Of a stretch of 64,000 bases of DNA, positions 6,232 through 12,904 are shown piece after piece. The DNA comes from Bryobacterales bacterium. Its GTDB lineage: Bacteria > Acidobacteriota > Terriglobia > Bryobacterales > Bryobacteraceae. Under the pieces are notes generated by a model that was given only the letters and a program-made list of their open reading frames with translations, did not search any database and had not been told where the DNA came from. The DNA lies in assembly GCA_963725455.1 (NCBI GenBank), contig CAVRZH010000112.1, positions 12,600-76,599 of the forward strand, read 5' to 3'. Numbering within the stretch: the first letter of the stretch is position 1; each line of letters starts with the position of its first letter. The translations under genes and the position numbers were made by a program.

Positions 6232-6287
6232 CTCGATGCTAGAGTATATGATGTGATCGACCTTCGTCAATGAAACGGAGACAGCTC

Positions 6288-6704
6288 ATGCGGACCAAAT
6301 TCGCAGCCCTCGTTGCTTTCGCGCTCTCGGCAACCGTTTTGCCGATGGAAGCGCACCATTCTTTCGCGGCCGAATACGACGCCAGCAAAGCCGTCCGCAT
6401 CACCGGCTTGATTAGCAAAGTGGAATGGACCAATCCGCATTCGTATCTATATATAGATGTGAAGGACGATCAGGGCAACTTCGTCACCTGGACCTGCGAG
6501 GGCGGGGCTCCGAACGCTTTATCGCGGCGCGGCTTTCGCAAAAATGACATCAAGCTCGGCGACACCGTCACTATCGACGGCTATGGAGCCAAGGACGGTT
6601 CGCACTTGATGGATGCGCGGCGCATCACGCTGACCGATGGACGAAGCTTTTATAGCGGTTCGCCGGGCGACGGCGGTCCTGGTGATCCAGGAAAAGGTCA
6701 GTAG
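6288..6704 (+). CDS. DUF6152 family periplasmic protein
   Basis: A signal peptide is followed by HHSFAAEYD...ITGLISKVEWTNPHSYLYIDV, the pattern I associate with DUF6152. The ATG at 6288 has GGAGA about 7 nt upstream (the track ORF starts at 6270). Confidence 0.8.
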   Translation: MRTKFAALVAFALSATVLPMEAHHSFAAEYDASKAVRITGLISKVEWTNPHSYLYIDVKDDQGNFVTWTCEGGAPNALSRRGFRKNDIKLGDTVTIDGYGAKDGSHLMDARRITLTDGRSFYSGSPGDGGPGDPGKGQ

Positions 6705-6707
6705 GCA

Positions 6708-7988
6708 CTACGCTACTCCGGCCCGCGCGATGGTTGTGCGACGGCCAATCTGCGTACCGAACACTTTTCGCAGCAGCGGTCTGAAACGAGGATCTTTCCG
6801 CAGCCCTTCGCCGCGCGGGTCTACATTGAGCTGGAATAAGGTGGCGGAATTCTCCCGCCGTGCCCGCTCCAGTTCGGCGAACGCCTGATCCCGTTTGCCT
6901 AGAGCATCCATCAGCAGAGCCACGTAATAGGCGTCCACGTATTCCCGCTCTCGCAGCTTCTGCAACTCATCCAACGCGGCTAGCGCACGGTCCCGTCGTC
7001 CGTTCCTGGCAAGTGAAGCGCCTTCGAGCGCCCGCAGCCACGGCAGATCCGGCGACATCACACAGGCCAGGCGCATTTCGGCGAGCGCTTCGTCCACGCG
7101 TCCGGTGCGTTCCAGGGCTTCGGCATAGTGGGCGCGTCCCACGTGCTGATAAGGATGCAGATCAATGGAGCTTTTTCCGCACACCACGGCTTCGTCAAAC
7201 TCGTGCCTGCACATCCGGATAAACGTCTCCACCGACAGCAGTACCGGACACAGCGGATCCGCCGCGCGGCCGTCGACAATCATCTCCAGCGCGTCGTCCA
7301 ATTGCCCCTTGGTAGAATACAAAATCGCCAGCCGGACGTAGATGGTTCCTAGTTTGGGTTCCTCGCGCAAAGCGTGCTTTAGTTCGGTTTCCGCTTCGTC
7401 CAGTTTTCGCTCGCAAATGTGCAGCGCGTGGCCCCAGTTCGATCGCAGGGACGCGGTCAAACCTCCCAATGCCACGGCCCGCTTGTGCGCTTCCAAAAAC
7501 TGCGGGTACATTTCGATGGGCGGAAGCATTCCATGGGTGCAAAGCAGCAGATGACAAAGTGATATGCCTTCGAACGCCTGGAAGTCGGTTCCATCCTCCC
7601 GCGCAGCCTGCTCGAAACACGCCTTGGCCTTCTCCAAGCCTTCGCGCGTCCGGCGCTCAAAGATGTGCCATCCCTTACGGATTAGGTTCTCCGCCTTTGG
7701 TACTTCCAGCGCATACCCCAGTTTAGGGCGGCAGCGTATCCACGATCCATACTCCTGCAACACCTTCTTCACTTCCACGATTGTCACTGCAACTGTATTT
7801 GGGGAGACTGATATGCCATTCCACGCTTCGCGGATCATCTGCTCGTGATGCACATACCGGCCACTATTCCGAATCAAGACGTTGAGCGCCCGAAATGCCT
7901 GCGGCCGTAATTCCAGTTCGGAATCGCCCCGCCGTAGCCGACGTCCCGCCATGTCTACCGAGAAGGGTCCAAAGGTTATGTGCTCCAT
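6708..7988 (-). CDS. Winged-helix (OmpR/CadC/SARP-type trans_reg_C) DNA-binding domain fused to TPR repeats; no receiver domain
   Basis: The N-terminus FGPFSVDMAGRRLRRGDSELELRPQAFRALNVLIRNSGRYVHHEQMIREAWNG...VAVTIVEVKKVL is a typical trans_reg_C fold signature. The remaining ~320 aa are TPR-like repeats. I saw no obvious TM segment. Confidence 0.85.
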   Translation of the reverse strand: MEHITFGPFSVDMAGRRLRRGDSELELRPQAFRALNVLIRNSGRYVHHEQMIREAWNGISVSPNTVAVTIVEVKKVLQEYGSWIRCRPKLGYALEVPKAENLIRKGWHIFERRTREGLEKAKACFEQAAREDGTDFQAFEGISLCHLLLCTHGMLPPIEMYPQFLEAHKRAVALGGLTASLRSNWGHALHICERKLDEAETELKHALREEPKLGTIYVRLAILYSTKGQLDDALEMIVDGRAADPLCPVLLSVETFIRMCRHEFDEAVVCGKSSIDLHPYQHVGRAHYAEALERTGRVDEALAEMRLACVMSPDLPWLRALEGASLARNGRRDRALAALDELQKLREREYVDAYYVALLMDALGKRDQAFAELERARRENSATLFQLNVDPRGEGLRKDPRFRPLLRKVFGTQIGRRTTIARAGVA

Positions 7989-8013
7989 AGTTCCCAGCCC
8001 ATCGATTTCATAA

Positions 8014-8097
8014 TTTTTTAACCCTGAGTTGTAGTGAATCTAGCATAGAACCGAGCCAAAGGCTAGACGCCATTTAGACGCTGGGGTGAATAGTAAT
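8014..8097 (+). promoter_or_regulatory. Candidate operator/promoter module A (TTTTTTAAC, ATAGAA-N12-CTAGAC-N5-TTAGAC, then AGTAAT)
   Basis: Located in the divergent region between the regulator (start 7988) and gene 8133. In my hand alignment about 48 of the first 69 positions are identical, without gaps, to 9183-9251. Hexamers start at 8045, 8063 and 8074 (spacing 18 and 11 bp), and a -10-like AGTAAT sits at 8092-8097. Confidence 0.5.
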
Positions 8098-8132
8098 TCT
8101 CTAACGCACGCGTACTTGATGGAGAATAGGAT

Positions 8133-9137
8133 TTGAAGCTTCTCGCTCTTCTCCTAGGCTTGGCATGGATTGCGGCTTTCGCCCAAAACACTGCTCCTGC
8201 CGGAGCCATCAGCGGCACTCTTTTCGATTCCATCGGCGATCCGATCGATCACAATGAAGTGCAGGCGGAGAACGCGGATACCCACGCCGTTTTTAAAGCC
8301 ACAACTTCCGCCGCTGGCAAATACATCTTGTCAGGCTTACCGCCCGGCAAGTATTTTGTTGTGGTCTCCGCGCCCGGACTGAAAACATTCGCGATGAAAG
8401 GCGTCGTTGTCAAAGCATCGCTCACCCTTCGGTTCGATATCCACCTTGCCGACACCACGCAGCTCAACACGCTGGGCGAAGATCGCTTGAGGATAACCGA
8501 GGACAACAAGCGAGACCATCCGCCCTCTGGCGCAGCGCCGCGCACTCCCGATGGCAAGCCCGATCTTTCGGGCGTCTGGTGGCAACCCCGCACCGTGGAT
8601 CCCGGCCAGCCTGAGTTTCTGCCTGCGGCGATTGCCATCCAGAAGGAGCGGCTCGAAAATAACTTGAAGGACAGTCCCCAGGCGCACTGCCTGCCGTCTG
8701 CCCCGCTCCGCAATGGTCCGCTGTGGGAGTTCGTCCAGAGCAAGGATTTTCTGGTCTATATTTCAGACGACGAGAGTCCGGGCTTTCATCAGATCTATCT
8801 GGACGGCCGCGGCCATCCTGCCGATCCGAATCCGGCCTGGTACGGTCACTCCATTGGCCGTTGGGACGGCGATACCCTGGTGGTCGATCGCGTCGCTTTC
8901 GATCCGCGAGTCTGGCTCGACATCCAAGCTCATCCGCATTCCGATAAGCTTCACATTATCGAGCGCTACCATCGCCCCGATCTCGGCCATCTCGAAATAG
9001 AAATCACGGTCGACGACCCGGGGGTTCTAGAAAAACCTTGGATACAGAAGCGCGTGGCAGACCTTGCGCACGAAGAGATCTTTGAGTTCATCTGCGCGGA
9101 AAACAACCGCGACCTCCAGCACTTAGTCGGCAAGTAA
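8133..9137 (+). CDS. Secreted fusion protein: CarboxypepD_reg-like domain + unnamed-family domain (paralog P2)
   Basis: TTG start with GGAG 8 nt upstream and signal peptide MKLLALLLGLAWIAAFA. The N-terminal ~100 aa (ISGTLFDSIGDPI...AAGKYILSGLPPGKYFVVVSAPGLKTF) resemble the carboxypeptidase regulatory-like fold. The C-terminal part has DGKPDLSGVWW, GRWDGDTLVVDRVAF, HSDKLHIIERYHRP and FICAEN. Confidence 0.8.
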   Translation: MKLLALLLGLAWIAAFAQNTAPAGAISGTLFDSIGDPIDHNEVQAENADTHAVFKATTSAAGKYILSGLPPGKYFVVVSAPGLKTFAMKGVVVKASLTLRFDIHLADTTQLNTLGEDRLRITEDNKRDHPPSGAAPRTPDGKPDLSGVWWQPRTVDPGQPEFLPAAIAIQKERLENNLKDSPQAHCLPSAPLRNGPLWEFVQSKDFLVYISDDESPGFHQIYLDGRGHPADPNPAWYGHSIGRWDGDTLVVDRVAFDPRVWLDIQAHPHSDKLHIIERYHRPDLGHLEIEITVDDPGVLEKPWIQKRVADLAHEEIFEFICAENNRDLQHLVGK

Positions 9138-9182
9138 CAGCGGCCAACCCCCTCAATAACTTAGACGAATTGAATTTCACAG

Positions 9183-9268
9183 TTTTTTAACAGCAGGCTG
9201 CATGCAATCTGGCTTAGAATCACGACAACGGCTAGACTGTACTTAGACGCTCAGGGTTGGACAGTAAT
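9183..9268 (+). promoter_or_regulatory. Candidate operator/promoter module B, paralogous to 8014-8097
   Basis: Same order and spacing as module A: TTTTTTAAC at 9183, TTAGAA at 9214, CTAGAC at 9232, TTAGAC at 9243 (spacing 18 and 11 bp), AGTAAT at 9263-9268. It lies 73 nt upstream of the receptor ATG. Confidence 0.5.
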
Positions 9269-9340
9269 CTATCTATCAGTTGTCGTAGTATTGGGCACTG
9301 ACCTAAGGCGCTAGCCCATAGTCAAAGGAGAATCAGGGGT

Positions 9341-12300
9341 ATGAGATTCAAGAAGCCACTCAGTATGTGGCTCGCAGTTGCTTCAATGTTGACGCTGTTG
9401 GCCATGTCGGCTTCCATCCTAATGGCCCAATCAGCCGGAACGTCGGGTTTAGCCGGCACGGTAACAGATCCATCCGGCGCAGCCGTTCCCAACGTCAGCG
9501 TAACTATTACCAGCAACGAAACCGGCCTAACGCGCACGGCAACTACCGGAGCCGATGGCACCTATAAGTTCAGCCTGCTGCCGCCGGGCAACTATCACGT
9601 ACGTTTCGCGGCCACCGGCTTTAAAACAGCGGAGGTTGGCGCAGTGACGTTGAACGTCACCGAGACGCCCGAGTTGAACCGTACGCTCGAGATCGGGCAG
9701 CAAACTGAAGAGGTGACTGTAGAAGCCACGGCCGAGAACCTGCAGACCCAAAGCTCCACCCTAGGAAGCGTGGCTACAGGTGCCGAGGTCACGGGTCTTC
9801 CGCTGAGCAATCGCAACTACACGCAGATCCTCAGCCTTGCGGCCGGCGCGAATGCCGCCGTGAACGACGCTCGCTCGCTCGGCAAAGGCACCCAGGACAT
9901 GAGTGTCAACGGAAACTCGCCCGGGTCGAACAACTTTCAGATGGACGGCGTGGCCATCAGTAGCATTGCCCATCCGGATACTGCGAACGATACCAACATC
10001 TATGCGGGCATCGGCATTCCCAGCCCGGATGCCATTCAGGAATTCAAGGTTCAAACATCCACGTATGACGCTAGCTACGGCCGCAATCCGGGCGCCAACG
10101 TCAACGTCGTGACGAAATCGGGTTCCAATCAATTCCACGGGACAGCCTTTGAGTTCTTTCGCAATGGCGATTTGGACGCGAACGACTTTTTCTATAACCG
10201 CGACACTTGCTCTATCACCTATGCGGGACAGAGCTGTCCTCACCAGGTTTTGAATATGAACCAGTTCGGGGGCGTGATCGGCGGGCCAATCAAGAAGGAT
10301 AAGCTTTTCTTTTTCGGTAGCTATCAGGGAACCCGTGAGAAGAACGGCGTAGCTGCGCAGGGCTTTACCGACGCAGTGCTGCCTCCCGTTCCAGCCGGTC
10401 CCAGGAGCACATCCCCCACCTCCGCATGGGCCCAGCAACTGGCCGCTCTGAATTGCACTGGCATCAGCTTTGGCCCGAACGTGGCGTGCAACGGCTCCAA
10501 CCTTAGCCCAGTTGCGCTCAACATCCTGAACCTGAAGCTGCCCAACGGCCAGTATTACTTTCCGAGCACCGGCGCCAGTGTTCCCACCAACGTCGGTTAC
10601 AGCATTCCCGCTCTATACAACGCCGATCAGATGGTCATCAACGGCGACTACCTGATCAACAGCAAGAACACTCTCGCGATGCGTTACTTCTACACGCGCG
10701 ATCCGCAGACCATTCCGCTGAACGGCTTTCTCCCGGGTGAGCCACAGACCGATTATTATTCCAACACCGACGCCTCCATCAAGCTCACCACCATCGTCAC
10801 GAACAGCCTGGTAAACGAACTGCGGGGATCGATGCAGCGCAACCTGGCTCGTTTGACCGATACCCCGATCCCAGGTAGTACGCCCGCCGACCTAGGCATC
10901 ACCCCCCTGGTGCCAGGGCTTCAGTTGACGCCGGGTATCGACATCATCACGGGGGGCTACACGATGTTCGACACCTTCAACCCAGCGTTCAGTCCCACCA
11001 CCGGGATCCAAATTTCCGACCAGGTCTCCTGGTCGCATGGGAAGCACACCATTCGCGCCGGCTACGAGTATGAAGAGAACCAATGGAACATCGTCTACCA
11101 GGGCTTCGAGCGCGGTTGGCTTTTGATGGGCACGTTCAACGATTTCCTGGTCGGCGGTCCAGGCAATGAATTGAGTTGCATCTTTTGCGTAGCCGGCCCT
11201 GAGCAGGGCGTAGTTCACGGCTATCGGCTGCCCGATCAGAACGCCTTCGTGCAGGACGACTACAAAGTCAGTTCTAAGTTCACCCTGAATCTTGGCGTCC
11301 GCTGGGAGTATGACGGTTCATTGAGCGACAAGTACGGAAACTTGACCAACCTGTGGACTAGCCAGTTGCAAAAGGTTCCCGTTCCGCCCACCGGTCCCAA
11401 CATGGGCGCCAACAATCTGGTCGGCTGGGTGGTTCCAGCGAACTACAGCACAGCTACGTACGGAGCAGTGCCGGCCGGTGTTCTGCAGAATTCCGGTAAC
11501 TTGCCGATTTCGAGTCGTGTTCCGCTCAGCAACTTCGCACCCCGAGTGGGATTTGCAGACCAGTTGACCGATAAGCTGGTTCTGCGTGGCGGCGTCGGTT
11601 TGTTCTACGACCGCGTGGATGTCGGCGCTCTGGTGCACGGCCTGGAGCAGGGCCCTCCCTACTCGGGAACCGCCGATGTCGGCTCGGGCAACGAGCAGAC
11701 CCTGGCGAATCCTTTCCCGGTTACTCCGATCGGTGTGTTTCCGCAGCGTTATTTCAATCCGGCATGTTTGAGCGCGGCGCCCACCGCGGCGGCGCCCATC
11801 CCCTGCAACTCCCCCGCCTATAACTCCTATTTGAGCGCGCCGTTCGTTTACCAGGATATGCACACACCCCTGGTGCGCCAGTACAACCTCAACCTGCAGT
11901 ACGAATTCGCGAAGAATTGGGTGTTGGAAACGGCTTATGTGGGATCGAGCGGCATCAACCTGCTGGATGCTTACCACAATTACAATACGGCGCAGTTGGC
12001 AAGTGCCAGCAACCCCATCAACGGCCAGACCACGAACTCGCTGGAAAACGTAGCTCTGCGCGTTCCCTATCTCGGTTATCAGCCGGTAGGCGTGCAGGGT
12101 AGCGCATTCGATGGTAGCTCCAACTACAACAGTCTGCAGGTAACGCTCCGCAAAAGCTTTTCCCACGGACTTTTTGTGCAGGCGTCTTACACCTATAGCA
12201 AGGACTTGACCGACATCAACTACTACAGTGGCGGAGCGGTGGGCGCGAACATCAACAACGCAAGCAACCTGGCCGCACAGTACGGACCGGCGTATTTCAG

Positions 12301-12904
12301 CCGGCCGCAACGTGTAGTCATCAATTATAGCTACGATCTGCCCCTCGGCACTCACCAGGGCGCCCTCGGCAAGCTGCTCAGCGGCTGGAATGTCTCGGGC
12401 GTAACCACCATCCAGGATGGTGGGCCTATGACGATCATCGATCCAAACGCGGGGTCCATCTATGGCACGAACTCCGTTGCCAATACGGCGCAGCTTTGTC
12501 CCGGACAGACCTACAGTTCCATCCTTTCAAGCGGCGGCCTTACCTCCCGCCTGGGTGGCAACAGCGGTGGCTCCGGCTACTTTAACTCCAACGCGTTTTG
12601 CTCCGCTCCAACCGGAGGCATCTACGGCAACGGAACGGGGTATGGCGACTCGGGCGTTGGTATCGTTCTGGGCCCCGGTCAATTCAACTGGGACATCACA
12701 ATCGTGAAGACGACAAAAATCACCGAACGCCAGACACTGATATTCCGCACCGAGTTCTTCAACGCCTTCAATCACGCTCAGTTCAACAATCCGCTCGCTA
12801 CGCCCTCCCCGGGCTTAGCTGAACTGGGATCAACGTTCGGTGAAATCACTTCCACCAGCGTCAATCCCAGGATTCTGCAGTTTGGGCTCAAGTACGTCTT
12901 TTAG
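9341..12904 (+). CDS. TonB-dependent outer-membrane receptor with N-terminal CarboxypepD_reg domain (acidobacterial type)
   Basis: 1187 aa with RBS AAAGGAGAA upstream and a signal peptide. GLAGTVTDPSGAAVPNVSVTITSNETGLTRTATTGADGTYKFSLLPPGNYHV is a CarboxypepD_reg signature. This is followed by a plug-like region, a long beta-rich region and a C-terminal aromatic residue (GLKYVF). Confidence 0.9.
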   Translation: MRFKKPLSMWLAVASMLTLLAMSASILMAQSAGTSGLAGTVTDPSGAAVPNVSVTITSNETGLTRTATTGADGTYKFSLLPPGNYHVRFAATGFKTAEVGAVTLNVTETPELNRTLEIGQQTEEVTVEATAENLQTQSSTLGSVATGAEVTGLPLSNRNYTQILSLAAGANAAVNDARSLGKGTQDMSVNGNSPGSNNFQMDGVAISSIAHPDTANDTNIYAGIGIPSPDAIQEFKVQTSTYDASYGRNPGANVNVVTKSGSNQFHGTAFEFFRNGDLDANDFFYNRDTCSITYAGQSCPHQVLNMNQFGGVIGGPIKKDKLFFFGSYQGTREKNGVAAQGFTDAVLPPVPAGPRSTSPTSAWAQQLAALNCTGISFGPNVACNGSNLSPVALNILNLKLPNGQYYFPSTGASVPTNVGYSIPALYNADQMVINGDYLINSKNTLAMRYFYTRDPQTIPLNGFLPGEPQTDYYSNTDASIKLTTIVTNSLVNELRGSMQRNLARLTDTPIPGSTPADLGITPLVPGLQLTPGIDIITGGYTMFDTFNPAFSPTTGIQISDQVSWSHGKHTIRAGYEYEENQWNIVYQGFERGWLLMGTFNDFLVGGPGNELSCIFCVAGPEQGVVHGYRLPDQNAFVQDDYKVSSKFTLNLGVRWEYDGSLSDKYGNLTNLWTSQLQKVPVPPTGPNMGANNLVGWVVPANYSTATYGAVPAGVLQNSGNLPISSRVPLSNFAPRVGFADQLTDKLVLRGGVGLFYDRVDVGALVHGLEQGPPYSGTADVGSGNEQTLANPFPVTPIGVFPQRYFNPACLSAAPTAAAPIPCNSPAYNSYLSAPFVYQDMHTPLVRQYNLNLQYEFAKNWVLETAYVGSSGINLLDAYHNYNTAQLASASNPINGQTTNSLENVALRVPYLGYQPVGVQGSAFDGSSNYNSLQVTLRKSFSHGLFVQASYTYSKDLTDINYYSGGAVGANINNASNLAAQYGPAYFSRPQRVVINYSYDLPLGTHQGALGKLLSGWNVSGVTTIQDGGPMTIIDPNAGSIYGTNSVANTAQLCPGQTYSSILSSGGLTSRLGGNSGGSGYFNSNAFCSAPTGGIYGNGTGYGDSGVGIVLGPGQFNWDITIVKTTKITERQTLIFRTEFFNAFNHAQFNNPLATPSPGLAELGSTFGEITSTSVNPRILQFGLKYVF

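What the first reader, a model, noticed from the sequence alone, without database searches (positions are those of the whole stretch)
8014..8097. Paralogous promoter/operator module with TAGA(A/C) direct repeats at 11-bp spacing in the regulator-target divergent region
The sequence TTTTTTAAC-N22-ATAGAA-N12-CTAGAC-N5-TTAGAC-N12-AGTAAT recurs upstream of the receptor gene (9183-9268) with identical hexamer spacing (18 and 11 bp). In my ungapped hand alignment about 48 of 69 positions are identical, far above what I expect for unrelated intergenic DNA. Winged-helix activators of the OmpR/PhoB/SARP class bind direct repeats one helical turn apart that replace the -35 element, and the only such regulator nearby is encoded divergently at 6708-7988. 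The module would therefore serve both autoregulation and activation of 8133.
Basis: partly seen in the sequence, partly recalled or inferred. Interest (0 to 1): 0.65.

Follow-up and report, generated by a model that had tools for sequence, protein, structure and literature searches.

The report
Duplicated promoter-operator module, acidobacterial receptor locus
The repeat is real: it is a roughly 95-bp control region, conserved across soil Bryobacterales (Acidobacteriota), that sits between a winged-helix/TPR regulator gene and its outer-membrane receptor gene and was duplicated here when an extra gene was inserted. It is ordinary promoter/operator biology, but a clean and testable case.

Summary
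Observation confirmed. Window 8005-8082 and 9174-9251 match at 55/78 positions without gaps (score 32; shuffles 8.3 +/- 1.1, max 14).

The same module lies in front of the orthologous TonB-type receptor gene in every related locus fetched (26 distinct copies). It occurs once per genome in 12 Bryobacterales MAGs. It is 64-90% identical where 4-fold sites of the neighbouring gene are 31-55%.

Interpretation partly supported. The CTAGAC-N5-TTAGAC repeats are conserved, but three details change:
- "ATAGAA" is the right arm of a 21-bp near-palindrome, GTGAATCTA-GCA-TAGAATCAC. It reads TAGAAT towards the receptor and TGnTAGATT (extended -10) towards the regulator.
It lies about -52..-36 of the receptor promoter and +9..+25 of the regulator promoter.
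- AGTAAT is a weak -10 candidate.

Each -10 is present or absent according to which gene is adjacent. In duplicated loci the two copies have decayed in complementary ways.

Best model: a bidirectional promoter with tandem-hexamer operators for the divergent OmpR/PhoB-type regulator. No transcription start or binding data exist. This is a new member of a known kind, of moderate interest.

The parts
6708..7988 (-). Regulator gene: N-terminal OmpR/PhoB-type winged helix (aa 23-94) followed directly by a TPR solenoid; no receiver domain and no membrane segment
   Evidence: Pfam Trans_reg_C 39.4 bits (cut-off 26.2) plus TPR families. AlphaFold2 model pLDDT 92: four strands, three helices and a beta-hairpin wing, then helices 99-425. 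Orthologues at 55-95% identity are always divergent from the receptor gene.
8005..8022 (+). Copy A, tandem pair 1 (O1): ATTTCAT 8005-8011 and TTTTAAC 16-22, hexamers TTTCAT/TTTAAC 11 bp apart. Predicted at -52..-36 of the rightward promoter and +9..+25 of the regulator transcript
   Evidence: Near-invariant columns in 26 module copies. Positional equivalent of TTTGAC-N5-TTTGAC in distant orthologous loci.
8034..8054 (.). Copy A, 21-bp core GTGAATCTA-GCA-TAGAACCGA (near-palindrome in the consensus)
   Evidence: Most conserved block of the module.
8037..8045 (-). Copy A, TGCTAGATT on the minus strand: extended -10 (TGnTAnnnT) predicted for the regulator promoter. Predicted start near 8030, giving a 42-nt leader
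   Evidence: TGnTAnnnT is present 13-14 nt from pair 1 in every element adjacent to a regulator gene and absent from elements adjacent only to a receptor gene. TAGATT is kept in 14/14 single and 4/5 A copies.
8046..8051 (+). Copy A, TAGAAC: decayed version of the TAGAAT -10 hexamer (T-7 lost)
   Evidence: All 5 A copies are altered here (TAGAAC x2, TAGAGT x2, TAGAAG). It is intact in 14/14 single and 7/7 receptor-proximal copies.
8061..8082 (+).
   Evidence: Both hexamers are conserved in all window-type modules, including A copies that lack the downstream complementary block. Absent from distant orthologous loci.
8092..8097 (+).
   Evidence: Weakly conserved block AGTAA(T/G). In A the alternative register is TAATTC, only 13 nt after TAGACG.
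8133..9137 (+). Inserted gene: signal peptide, CarboxypepD_reg domain and an unassigned C-terminal part; TTG start, GGAG at 8121-8124
   Evidence: Pfam. Present only in the window's closest relatives (L006, L007, L023, L030) and absent from 11+ other orthologous loci.
9174..9191 (+). Copy B, tandem pair 1 (O1): ATTTCAC / TTTTAAC (hexamers 9175-9180 and 9186-9191)
9203..9223 (.). Copy B core TGCAATCTG-GCT-TAGAATCAC. The left arm has decayed (minus strand CAGATT, no TG). The right arm TAGAAT 9215-9220 is intact. Predicted receptor transcript start near A9227
9232..9248 (+). Copy B, tandem pair 2 (O2): CTAGAC-N5-TTAGAC, predicted at +6..+22 of the receptor transcript
9263..9270 (+). Copy B, AGTAATCT. 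The alternative -10 register TAATCT lies 15 nt after TAGACG and is a possible second promoter
   Evidence: TAAnnT with A-11 and T-7 in 15 of 21 receptor-proximal copies, read from the sequences.
9308..9316 (+). GCGCTAGCC in the receptor leader, complementary to GGCTAG(A)CGC of pair 2
   Evidence: RNAalifold helix: 91% of cells paired against 37-63% when slid, with a few compensatory changes. Not thermodynamically significant.
9341..12904 (+). TonB-dependent-receptor-like outer-membrane protein (CarboxypepD_reg, Plug, OMP_b-brl_4): the conserved target gene
   Evidence: Pfam. 75-93% identical orthologues follow the module in all loci.

Best explanation
The 8005-8097 and 9174-9270 stretches are two copies of the promoter/operator region of a conserved two-gene cassette. 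The cassette pairs a cytoplasmic one-component regulator (N-terminal OmpR/PhoB-type winged helix plus a TPR sensor) with a divergently transcribed TonB-type receptor gene.

Shown:
- The module is under purifying selection.
- It is found once per genome at this locus only.
- It always precedes the receptor gene.
- It was duplicated in the window's subclade when gene 8133 was inserted.

Inferred anatomy:
- A bidirectional core AATCTA-GCA-TAGAAT carries two back-to-back -10 elements. TAGAAT drives rightward transcription (receptor). It has no TG and no -35, so it should depend on an activator. TGnTAGATT on the other strand is an extended -10 that drives the regulator gene.
- A tandem hexamer pair 11 bp apart (TTTCAY-N5-TTTAAC, ancestrally TTTGAC-N5-TTTGAC) forms a 22-bp box centred near -41.5 of the receptor promoter. 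The same box covers +9..+25 of the regulator transcript.
- The regulator, bound head-to-tail as OmpR/PhoB-family domains are, would activate the receptor promoter and at the same time block its own promoter.
It lies at +6..+22 of the receptor transcript. It most likely serves as an extra operator, either repressing or looping, or feeding a weak second promoter.

After duplication the two copies split the job. Copy A kept the regulator-side -10 and lost T-7 of TAGAAT. Copy B kept TAGAAT and lost the regulator-side -10.
For: 1. Real repeat: 55/78 identical, score 32 against shuffles of 8.3 +/- 1.1.

2. Conservation. nhmmer finds the module in every orthologous locus, 26 distinct copies. Module identity to the window is 64-90%, while 4-fold degenerate sites of the adjacent regulator gene are 31-55%.

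3. Locus specificity. A scan of 185,579 genomes with AAGGYTAGACGNNNNTTWGACG gave 20 hits. Twelve were in Bryobacterales/Bryobacteraceae MAGs, one per genome, all at the orthologous receptor gene. The other 8 fall outside that clade (seven in other phyla, one in an unclassified MAG) and none carries a full module.

4. The regulator-receptor pairing persists down to 55% regulator identity while the flanking genes differ.

5. The -10 assignment follows the neighbouring gene. Elements next to a regulator only (L018d, L040d, L041d) have minus-strand TGATATACT or TGATATAAT; L018d and L040d lack a plus-strand TAnAAT, and L041d has only TATAGT. Elements next to a receptor only (L018p, L040p, L041p, window B) have TAGAAT or TACAAT and no minus-strand TGnTAnnnT. 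Compact elements (L017, L039, L010, L002) have both. Spacings are fixed at 22-23 nt and 13-14 nt from the tandem pair. The third base of TAnAAT varies (G, A, T, C) while A-11 and T-7 do not.

6. Complementary decay. TAGAAT is intact in 14/14 single and 7/7 receptor-proximal copies and altered in 5/5 A copies in three different ways. TAGATT is intact in 14/14 single and 4/5 A copies. It reads CAGATT or CAGAAT in 6/6 B copies of loci that carry the inserted gene.

7. Regulator fold and family.

8. The recognition-helix difference (P/R-N against K/R-H at residues 63-64) coincides with the TTTCAC/TTTAAC versus TTTGAC change.

9. Tandem repeats one helical turn apart that engage RNA polymerase are the established mode for this fold (SARP/AfsR: PMC10936776).
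Against: - No transcription start site is mapped. There were no RNA runs for the window. Peat and rhizosphere metatranscriptome contigs on relatives are thin and undirected. One spans the whole intergenic region; another leaves it uncovered.
- No binding data exist.
- Promoter rules are borrowed from E. coli-type sigma-70. The tool's consensus scan flagged neither promoter.
- Counts across loci are not phylogenetically independent. The B-copy change TAGATT to CAGATT may be a single ancestral event. L015's second copy keeps both arms.
- Under this model gene 8133 is left with a poor -10 (TAGAAC), so how it is transcribed is unexplained.
- The role assigned to the TAGAC pair is the weakest step.
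- The recognition-helix correlation rests on one split in the tree.
Confidence: 0.55

Rival explanations
1. The regulator binds CTAGAC-N5-TTAGAC, which replaces the -35 of a promoter whose -10 is AGTAAT (or TAATCT, 2 nt downstream). This would be the main promoter of 8133 and 9341.
For: - Both hexamers and their flanks are conserved in all window-type modules.
- The spacing from TTAGAC to AGTAA is 14 nt in most copies.
- The geometry is near the SARP rule, with the 3' repeat about 8 bp from -10 and repeats 11 bp apart (PMC10936776).
- TAAnnT with A-11 and T-7 is present in 15/21 receptor-proximal copies.
- Variants with a roughly 33-bp insertion (L006A, L023A, L030A, L008) carry a third TTAGAC in helical phase, again 14 nt before AGT.
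Against: - The pair is absent from orthologous loci with 55-58% identical regulators, which keep the other tandem pair plus TAnAAT.
- The -10 candidate is lost or lacks T-7 in 6/21 receptor-proximal copies that keep the repeats (L011, L034, L012, L029, L028, L008).
- AGTAAT has G at -11.
- In copy A, the finding itself, the spacer is 13 nt and the hexamer is TAATTC.
Confidence: 0.2
2. The 21-bp near-palindrome GTGAWTCTA-N3-TAGAWTCAC is an operator for a second, dimeric regulator (or for this regulator binding in inverted fashion), rather than two -10 elements.
For: - 16/21 positions are symmetric, and it is the most conserved block.
- L017 shows symmetric changes at the outer positions (GGGA...TCCC).
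Against: - The arms decay independently, according to which gene is adjacent. A dimer site needs both arms.
- In L018, L040 and L041 the two halves occur hundreds of bp apart, each next to its own gene.
Confidence: 0.12
3. The downstream half (GGCTAGACGC ... GGGG) acts as RNA. It pairs with CCCC...GCGCTAGCC in the receptor leader to control mRNA stability or ribosome access.
For: - The consensus helix has 91% of cells paired, against 37-63% with slid partners.
- The covariation score is 0.218 against 0.158 in shuffles (3/500), with 9 doubly changed cells.
- It is only relevant if transcription starts upstream of pair 2, which the TAGAAT model predicts.
Against: - Folding energy is not better than shuffles (z +0.55 for window B, -1.55 for L003).
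- Most pairs are invariant.
- The second repeat is unpaired in the model yet equally conserved.
- A copies keep both hexamers with no 3' partner.
- There is no Rfam match.
- In window B the helix is partly broken (CTAGACTG).
Confidence: 0.12
4. The similarity is a passive remnant of a segmental duplication, gene conversion, or a dispersed repeat, and has no function.
For: The two copies do derive from a duplication, and the RBS regions are also similar.
Against: - The duplication predates the split of lineages whose regulators are 81-87% identical, since A copies cluster with A and B with B.
- Conserved blocks persist while 4-fold sites are near saturation.
- There is one module locus per genome.
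Confidence: 0.02

Closest known systems
PhoB / pho box (OmpR/PhoB family class II activation)
   Same: Same DNA-binding fold (Pfam Trans_reg_C; weak PhoB and KdpE matches). Tandem direct repeats with an 11-bp period lie next to a promoter that lacks a -35.
   Different: There is no receiver domain: the winged helix is N-terminal and fused to TPR. From established knowledge the pho box ends about 10 bp from the -10, whereas pair 1 ends 23 bp from TAGAAT. The hexamer sequence is unrelated to CTGTCAT.
SARP activators (AfsR, ActII-ORF4) and the afs box
   Same: A winged helix followed by a helical domain (large SARPs also carry TPR). Direct repeats are 11 or 22 bp apart, and a side-by-side dimer contacts RNA polymerase (PMC10936776).
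   Different: No BTAD or NOD domain was detected. The afs box is centred at -29.5 and its 3' repeat is 8 bp from -10. Here pair 1 is centred near -41.5. Only the younger pair 2 approaches SARP geometry. The phylum also differs.
HilA-type one-component regulators (Salmonella SPI-1)
   Same: A cytoplasmic protein with an N-terminal OmpR/ToxR-type domain and C-terminal TPR-like repeats that activates specific promoters (PMC7232297). From memory only, the HilA box is a direct hexamer repeat at about -54..-37, which would match pair 1.
   Different: The sequence match is far below the family cut-off (22.9 against 589 bits). HilA-box geometry could not be verified in the held literature. The target here is a receptor gene, and the regulator is divergent and apparently autoregulated.
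Bacterial bidirectional promoters arising from -10 symmetry (Warman et al. 2021, as summarised in PMC10268837)
   Same: A pseudo-symmetrical -10 region drives divergent transcription of two genes.
   Different: The described class has overlapping -10 elements with starts 7-25 bp apart (mode 18). Here the hexamers are back-to-back with a 3-bp spacer, and the predicted starts are about 28 bp apart. The starts are unmapped.
Other control systems of TonB-dependent receptor genes (Fur boxes, FecI/FecR ECF sigma signalling, Bacteroidetes hybrid two-component systems)
   Same: A dedicated local regulator sits next to a TonB-type receptor gene.
   Different: There is no ECF sigma/anti-sigma pair, no Fur-like box and no N-terminal signalling extension. 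The regulator class (winged helix plus TPR) differs.

Membership tests
OmpR/PhoB-type winged-helix DNA-binding domain (regulator 6708-7988) | Match to Pfam Trans_reg_C above the gathering score | tested here: met
   39.4 bits against a 26.2 cut-off, residues 23-94.
OmpR/PhoB-type winged-helix DNA-binding domain (regulator 6708-7988) | Fold: N-terminal four-stranded sheet, three helices, C-terminal beta-hairpin wing | tested here: met
   AlphaFold2 model pLDDT 92: strands 3-25, helices 29-40, 48-55 and 63-83, hairpin 84-94.
Two-component response regulator | Receiver (REC) domain with a phospho-acceptor | tested here: not met
   The DNA-binding domain is at the N-terminus. The rest is TPR only.
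SARP | Bacterial transcriptional activation domain (BTAD) after the winged helix | tested here: not met
   No BTAD hit at E <= 0.01. The fold search returns generic TPR proteins, not EmbR or AfsR.
SARP | Direct repeats 11 or 22 bp apart, with the 3' repeat about 8 bp from the -10 (PMC10936776) | tested here: inconclusive
   The 11-bp period is met for both pairs. The distance rule is not met for pair 1 (23 nt to TAGAAT). It is only roughly met for pair 2 with a doubtful -10.
Tandem direct-repeat operator of a winged-helix regulator | Two or more similar hexamers or heptamers on one strand, one helical turn apart, conserved in orthologues | tested here: met
   TTTCAY-N5-TTTAAC and CTAGAC-N5-TTAGAC occur in 26 copies. 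TTTGAC-N5-TTTGAC occurs in distant loci.
Tandem direct-repeat operator of a winged-helix regulator | Bound by the cognate protein | not testable with these tools
   Needs EMSA, footprinting or DAP-seq.
Sigma-70-type -10 element | TAnnnT with invariant A-11 and T-7, tolerant at other positions, at a fixed place before the gene | tested here: met
   TAGAAT, TAAAAT, TATAAT or TACAAT in all 26 receptor-proximal elements. TGnTAnnnT in all regulator-proximal elements except L023A and L030A.
Sigma-70-type -10 element | A transcription start 6-8 nt downstream | tested here: inconclusive
   No RNA runs for the window. Metatranscriptome contigs on L010 and L038 cannot place 5' ends.
Symmetry-type bidirectional promoter (PMC10268837) | Divergent starts 7-25 bp apart with reciprocally overlapping -7 and -11 positions | tested here: not met
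   The hexamers are adjacent rather than overlapping. Predicted starts are about 28 bp apart (8030 and 8058). The starts are not mapped.
Known cis-regulatory RNA (Rfam) | Match to a covariance model | tested here: not met
   Only a chance JUMPstart hit inside the regulator CDS, 18.7 against 35 bits, E 1.2.
Dispersed repeat / MITE | Many copies per genome at unrelated loci | tested here: not met
   One exact match per genome, always at the orthologous locus. Only two copies in the window.

The most novel reading that the evidence does not exclude
Two tandem-hexamer operators of the same orientation flank back-to-back -10 elements. Each promoter then has one operator near its -35 region and the other in its early transcribed region. 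One winged-helix/TPR protein would thereby set the direction of transcription (own gene versus receptor gene), perhaps by O1-O2 looping that is released by a ligand at the TPR domain. After duplication this bidirectional switch sub-functionalised into a regulator-only and a receptor-only copy, which would be a rare, sequence-resolved case of promoter subfunctionalisation in bacteria.
Probability: 0.2. Interest if true: 0.55.

Novelty: new member of a known kind. Interest (0 to 1): 0.35.

Why it matters
TonB-type receptors with CarboxypepD_reg domains, and winged-helix/TPR one-component regulators, are among the most expanded gene families in soil Acidobacteriota. I found no characterised example of how they are controlled.

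This locus offers three things:
- a compact regulator-operator-target unit, conserved across many uncultured Bryobacterales;
- base-level predictions (hexamers, -10 elements, start sites) that can be tested with one protein domain and two 100-bp fragments;
- promoter-like consensus elements (TAnAAT, TGnTAnnnT) inferred for an acidobacterial lineage.

The complementary decay of the two copies is a tidy evolutionary illustration. It does not change any general principle.

Tried and rejected
- **Rfam.** A scan of 7000-10500 at E <= 5 found only a chance JUMPstart hit.
- **Sigma-70 and terminator consensus scan.** Nothing was found in the modules under its 16-18-nt and 9/12 criteria.
- **RNA evidence.** There were no RNA runs for the window. 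Peat and rhizosphere metatranscriptome contigs laid on L010 and L038 show that relatives of both genes are transcribed. They are too shallow, undirected and possibly DNA-contaminated to place 5' ends.
- **RNA structure of the receptor leader.** There is a suggestive long-range helix but no thermodynamic support. It is kept only as a minor rival.
- **ECF-sigma or sigma-54 promoter readings.** GAATC-N15-CGC and TGGCAC-type patterns were considered by eye and dropped, because the critical bases are not conserved.
- **A minus-strand -35/-10 pair inside the module.** None has acceptable spacing. The extended -10 reading replaced it.
- **Regulon search.** The degenerate tandem pattern finds no further site in the 64-kb window. 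The strict pattern finds none elsewhere in 12 genomes. Diverged sites could not be searched genome-wide.
- **Structural neighbours of the regulator.** Only generic TPR proteins were returned.
- **HilA-box geometry.** It could not be verified, because the paper is not held.
Full report
**1. The observation**

The two stretches exist as described. A repeat search finds one 78-nt ungapped family, 8005-8082 and 9174-9251, at 71% identity. After a 2-nt indel it finds a second block, 8083-8097 and 9254-9268, at 80%. My own local-alignment score is 32. One thousand dinucleotide-preserving shuffles gave 8.3 +/- 1.1, with a maximum of 14.

The hexamer spacings of 18 and 11 bp are identical in both copies. 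The last spacer before AGTAAT is 12 nt in copy A and 14 nt in copy B.

The proteins encoded downstream share only 33% identity over their first 92 residues. The non-coding similarity is therefore not simply what an old duplication leaves behind. The window holds no third copy.

**2. The genes**

- 6708-7988 (minus strand) encodes a 426-aa protein. It has an N-terminal Trans_reg_C winged helix (39.4 bits, cut-off 26.2) followed by TPR repeats.
- A high-confidence model (pLDDT 92) shows the OmpR/PhoB fold: four strands, three helices and a hairpin wing. From residue 99 it runs straight into a TPR solenoid. There is no receiver domain, no BTAD domain and no membrane segment.
- 8133-9137 encodes a secreted CarboxypepD_reg protein with an unassigned C-terminal part.
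- 9341-12904 encodes a 1187-aa TonB-type receptor (CarboxypepD_reg, Plug, OMP_b-brl_4).
- No other winged-helix gene lies between 500 and 18,000.

**3. Relatives**

The regulator has hundreds of homologues at 55-95% identity. I fetched orthologous loci by protein look-up, by a metagenome scan and by a DNA-pattern scan of one genome per species.

- In every locus the regulator is divergent from an orthologous receptor gene, while the flanking genes differ.
- The pattern scan returned 20 hits. Twelve are in Bryobacterales/Bryobacteraceae MAGs, one per genome, each at the orthologous receptor gene.
- The other eight hits fall outside that clade: seven in other phyla and one in an unclassified MAG. 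None carries a full module (L032 gives only a weak partial profile hit, E 2.4e-5).
- The source is therefore a soil or peat member of Bryobacterales (Acidobacteriota), and the module is locus-specific rather than a dispersed repeat.

**4. Conservation**

A profile built from the first alignment finds the module in all window-type loci, giving 26 distinct copies. The consensus is:

AATTTCAC-N3-TTTTTTAA-N12-GTGAATCTA-GCA-TAGAATCAC-N3-CAAAGGCTAGACGC-N3-TTAGACGCT-AGGGG-N6-8-AGTAA(T/G)

Between the window and eight orthologous loci the module is 64-90% identical. Four-fold degenerate sites of the adjacent regulator gene are only 31-55% identical. The module is under purifying selection.

Most loci have a single module between regulator and receptor. 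The window's nearest relatives (L006, L007, L023, L030) share the three-gene arrangement with two modules. L015 has a second receptor paralogue with its own module. A copies cluster with A copies and B copies with B copies across genomes. The duplication is therefore old, and gene 8133 is a derived insertion.

**5. What the blocks are**

Its right arm reads TAGAAT on the plus strand. Its left arm plus the spacer reads TG(C/G)TAGATT on the minus strand, which is an extended -10.

*Distant loci.* Orthologous loci with 55-58% identical regulators (L017, L018, L039, L040, L041) decide the matter.
- They lack the CTAGAC/TTAGAC pair.
- They keep ATTTGAC-N4-TTTTGAC followed, after 22-23 nt, by TATAAT, TACAAT or TAGAAT before the receptor gene.
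- Where the intergenic region is long, a separate regulator-proximal element carries the same tandem hexamers 13 nt from a minus-strand TGATATAAT or TGATATACT.

*The pattern across twelve elements in four configurations*.
- The plus-strand TAnAAT is present when a receptor gene lies to the right.
- The minus-strand TGnTAnnnT is present when a regulator gene lies to the left.
- Both are present in compact loci.
- Neither is present without its gene, apart from a weak TATAGT on the plus strand of L041d.

*Variation.* The third base of TAnAAT varies (G, A, T, C) while A-11 and T-7 do not, as expected of a -10 hexamer.

*The duplicated loci*.
- TAGAAT is intact in 14/14 single and 7/7 receptor-proximal copies. 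It is altered in all five A copies, in three different ways (TAGAAC, TAGAGT, TAGAAG).
- TAGATT is intact in 14/14 single and 4/5 A copies. It reads CAGATT or CAGAAT in the six B copies of three-gene loci.

I read the core as two back-to-back -10 elements, not as a dimer operator.

**6. Geometry in the window**

| Feature | Copy A | Copy B |
|---|---|---|
| Pair 1 hexamers | TTTCAT 8006-8011, TTTAAC 8017-8022 | TTTCAC 9175-9180, TTTAAC 9186-9191 |
| Plus-strand -10 | TAGAAC 8046-8051 | TAGAAT 9215-9220 |
| Predicted rightward start | A8058 | A9227 |
| Minus-strand extended -10 | 8045-8037 | decayed (CAGATT, no TG) |
| Predicted leftward start | about 8030 (42-nt leader) | none expected |
| Pair 2 hexamers | 8063-8068, 8074-8079 | 9232-9237, 9243-9248 |

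Pair 1 is then at -52..-36 of the rightward promoter. As two 11-bp units it forms a 22-bp box centred near -41.5. The same pair is at +9..+25 of the regulator transcript. The rightward promoter has neither TG nor a -35 at 17 bp, as activator-dependent promoters often lack. Pair 2 lies at +6..+22 of the rightward transcript.

All four hexamers are within one or two mismatches of TTTGAC and point the same way. The regulator's recognition helix reads VS(P/R)NTVAVT in the window-type group and VS(K/R)HTVAVT in the distant group. This matches the TTTCAC/TTTAAC versus TTTGAC difference, but it rests on a single split in the tree.

**7. Mechanism proposed**

Shown:
- conservation of the module;
- its restriction to this one locus;
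- the gene-dependent presence of the two -10 motifs;
- the tandem hexamers at fixed distances;
- the regulator's fold.

Inferred:
- The regulator binds the tandem hexamers head-to-tail, as this fold does in PhoB and SARPs (PMC10936776).
- At pair 1 it activates the receptor promoter and obstructs its own promoter.
- Pair 2 is an additional, lineage-specific site. It may repress, loop to pair 1, or feed a weak second promoter (TAGACG-15-TAATCT).
- The TPR domain senses an unknown signal.

**8.

AGTAAT has G at -11. The block is AGTAAG in L026, L033, L034 and L015B. It is missing in L012, L028, L029 and L008, although the repeats are intact there.

Shifted by two bases, TAATCT has A-11 and T-7 in 15/21 receptor-proximal copies. 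It sits 15 nt after TAGACG or TTGACG, so a secondary promoter cannot be excluded. In copy A itself the spacer is 13 nt and the hexamer is TAATTC.

Variants with a roughly 33-bp insertion carry a third TTAGAC in helical phase, 14 nt before AGT.

**9. An RNA alternative**

In receptor-proximal copies GGCTAG(A)CGC and GGGG are complementary to CCCC...GCGCTAGCC (9308-9316) in the leader. On 13 sequences 91% of cells pair, against 37-63% with slid partners. The covariation score exceeds all but 3 of 500 shuffles.

Several points weigh against it:
- Folding energies are unremarkable (z +0.55 and -1.55).
- The second repeat is unpaired in the model.
- A copies keep both hexamers without a partner.
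- Window B breaks part of the helix.

I keep this as a minor, possibly additional, layer.

**10. Limits**

- No start site or binding datum exists. RNA runs for the window were not found, and contigs from peat and rhizosphere metatranscriptomes cannot place ends.
- Promoter rules come from E. coli-type sigma-70.
- Locus counts are phylogenetically correlated.
- Transcription of 8133 from a TAGAAC hexamer is unexplained.
- HilA-box geometry is recalled from memory, not verified.

**11. Verdict**

The finding is real, and its general idea is right: it is a regulator-linked promoter/operator module. Its anatomy needs revision. It is a new, well-conserved member of a known kind of system, and of moderate interest.

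Noticed in passing
L040:3854-4500 (regulator-receptor intergenic region, read on the minus strand): About 15 tandem copies of a roughly 14-nt unit (GACCCGGAACGACA / GACCCGGAATGTCA) fill the 647-bp intergenic region between the two promoter elements of this distant orthologous locus.
   Followed up: no
L017, L039, L040, L041 receptor leaders; also L039:608-797: A short palindrome, TTGCATGCAA (core TGCATGCA), is conserved 20-40 nt downstream of the TAnAAT hexamer in the distant group. The window-type group instead has GCGCTAGCC (window 9308-9316). Its function is unknown.
   Followed up: partly
L006:5881-5988, L023:5299-5399, L030:6075-6152, L008:2238-2362: These module variants carry a 32-33-bp insertion after the second TAGAC repeat. 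It ends in a third TTAGAC, 43-44 bp (four helical turns) from the first. L008 looks like an A/B hybrid sitting directly before the receptor gene, as if the inserted gene had been deleted by recombination between the two modules.
   Followed up: partly
window 8113-8135 vs 9318-9343: The ribosome-binding regions of 8133 and 9341 are also alike (GGAGAAT). Both proteins start with a signal peptide and a CarboxypepD_reg domain (33% identity). Gene 8133 may therefore have arisen from a partial duplication of the receptor's 5' end fused to another C-terminal domain.
   Followed up: no
window 9161-9166: An extra TTAGAC (AACTTAGACGAA) lies 14 nt upstream of pair 1 of copy B. It is out of helical phase and is not conserved in L007.
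   Followed up: partly
L006:991-4260: The orthologous receptor gene is split into five called ORFs. Either it is a pseudogene or the long-read assembly contains frameshift errors.
   Followed up: no
window 6270-6704; L039:5861-6262: A DUF6152 gene lies next to the regulator's 3' end, both in the window and in a distant orthologous locus. In L039 it is followed by another receptor paralogue.
   Followed up: no
window 9138-9173: No terminator-like hairpin lies between the stop of 8133 and copy B. Read-through from 8133 into the receptor gene is therefore possible in addition to the copy-B promoter.
   Followed up: no
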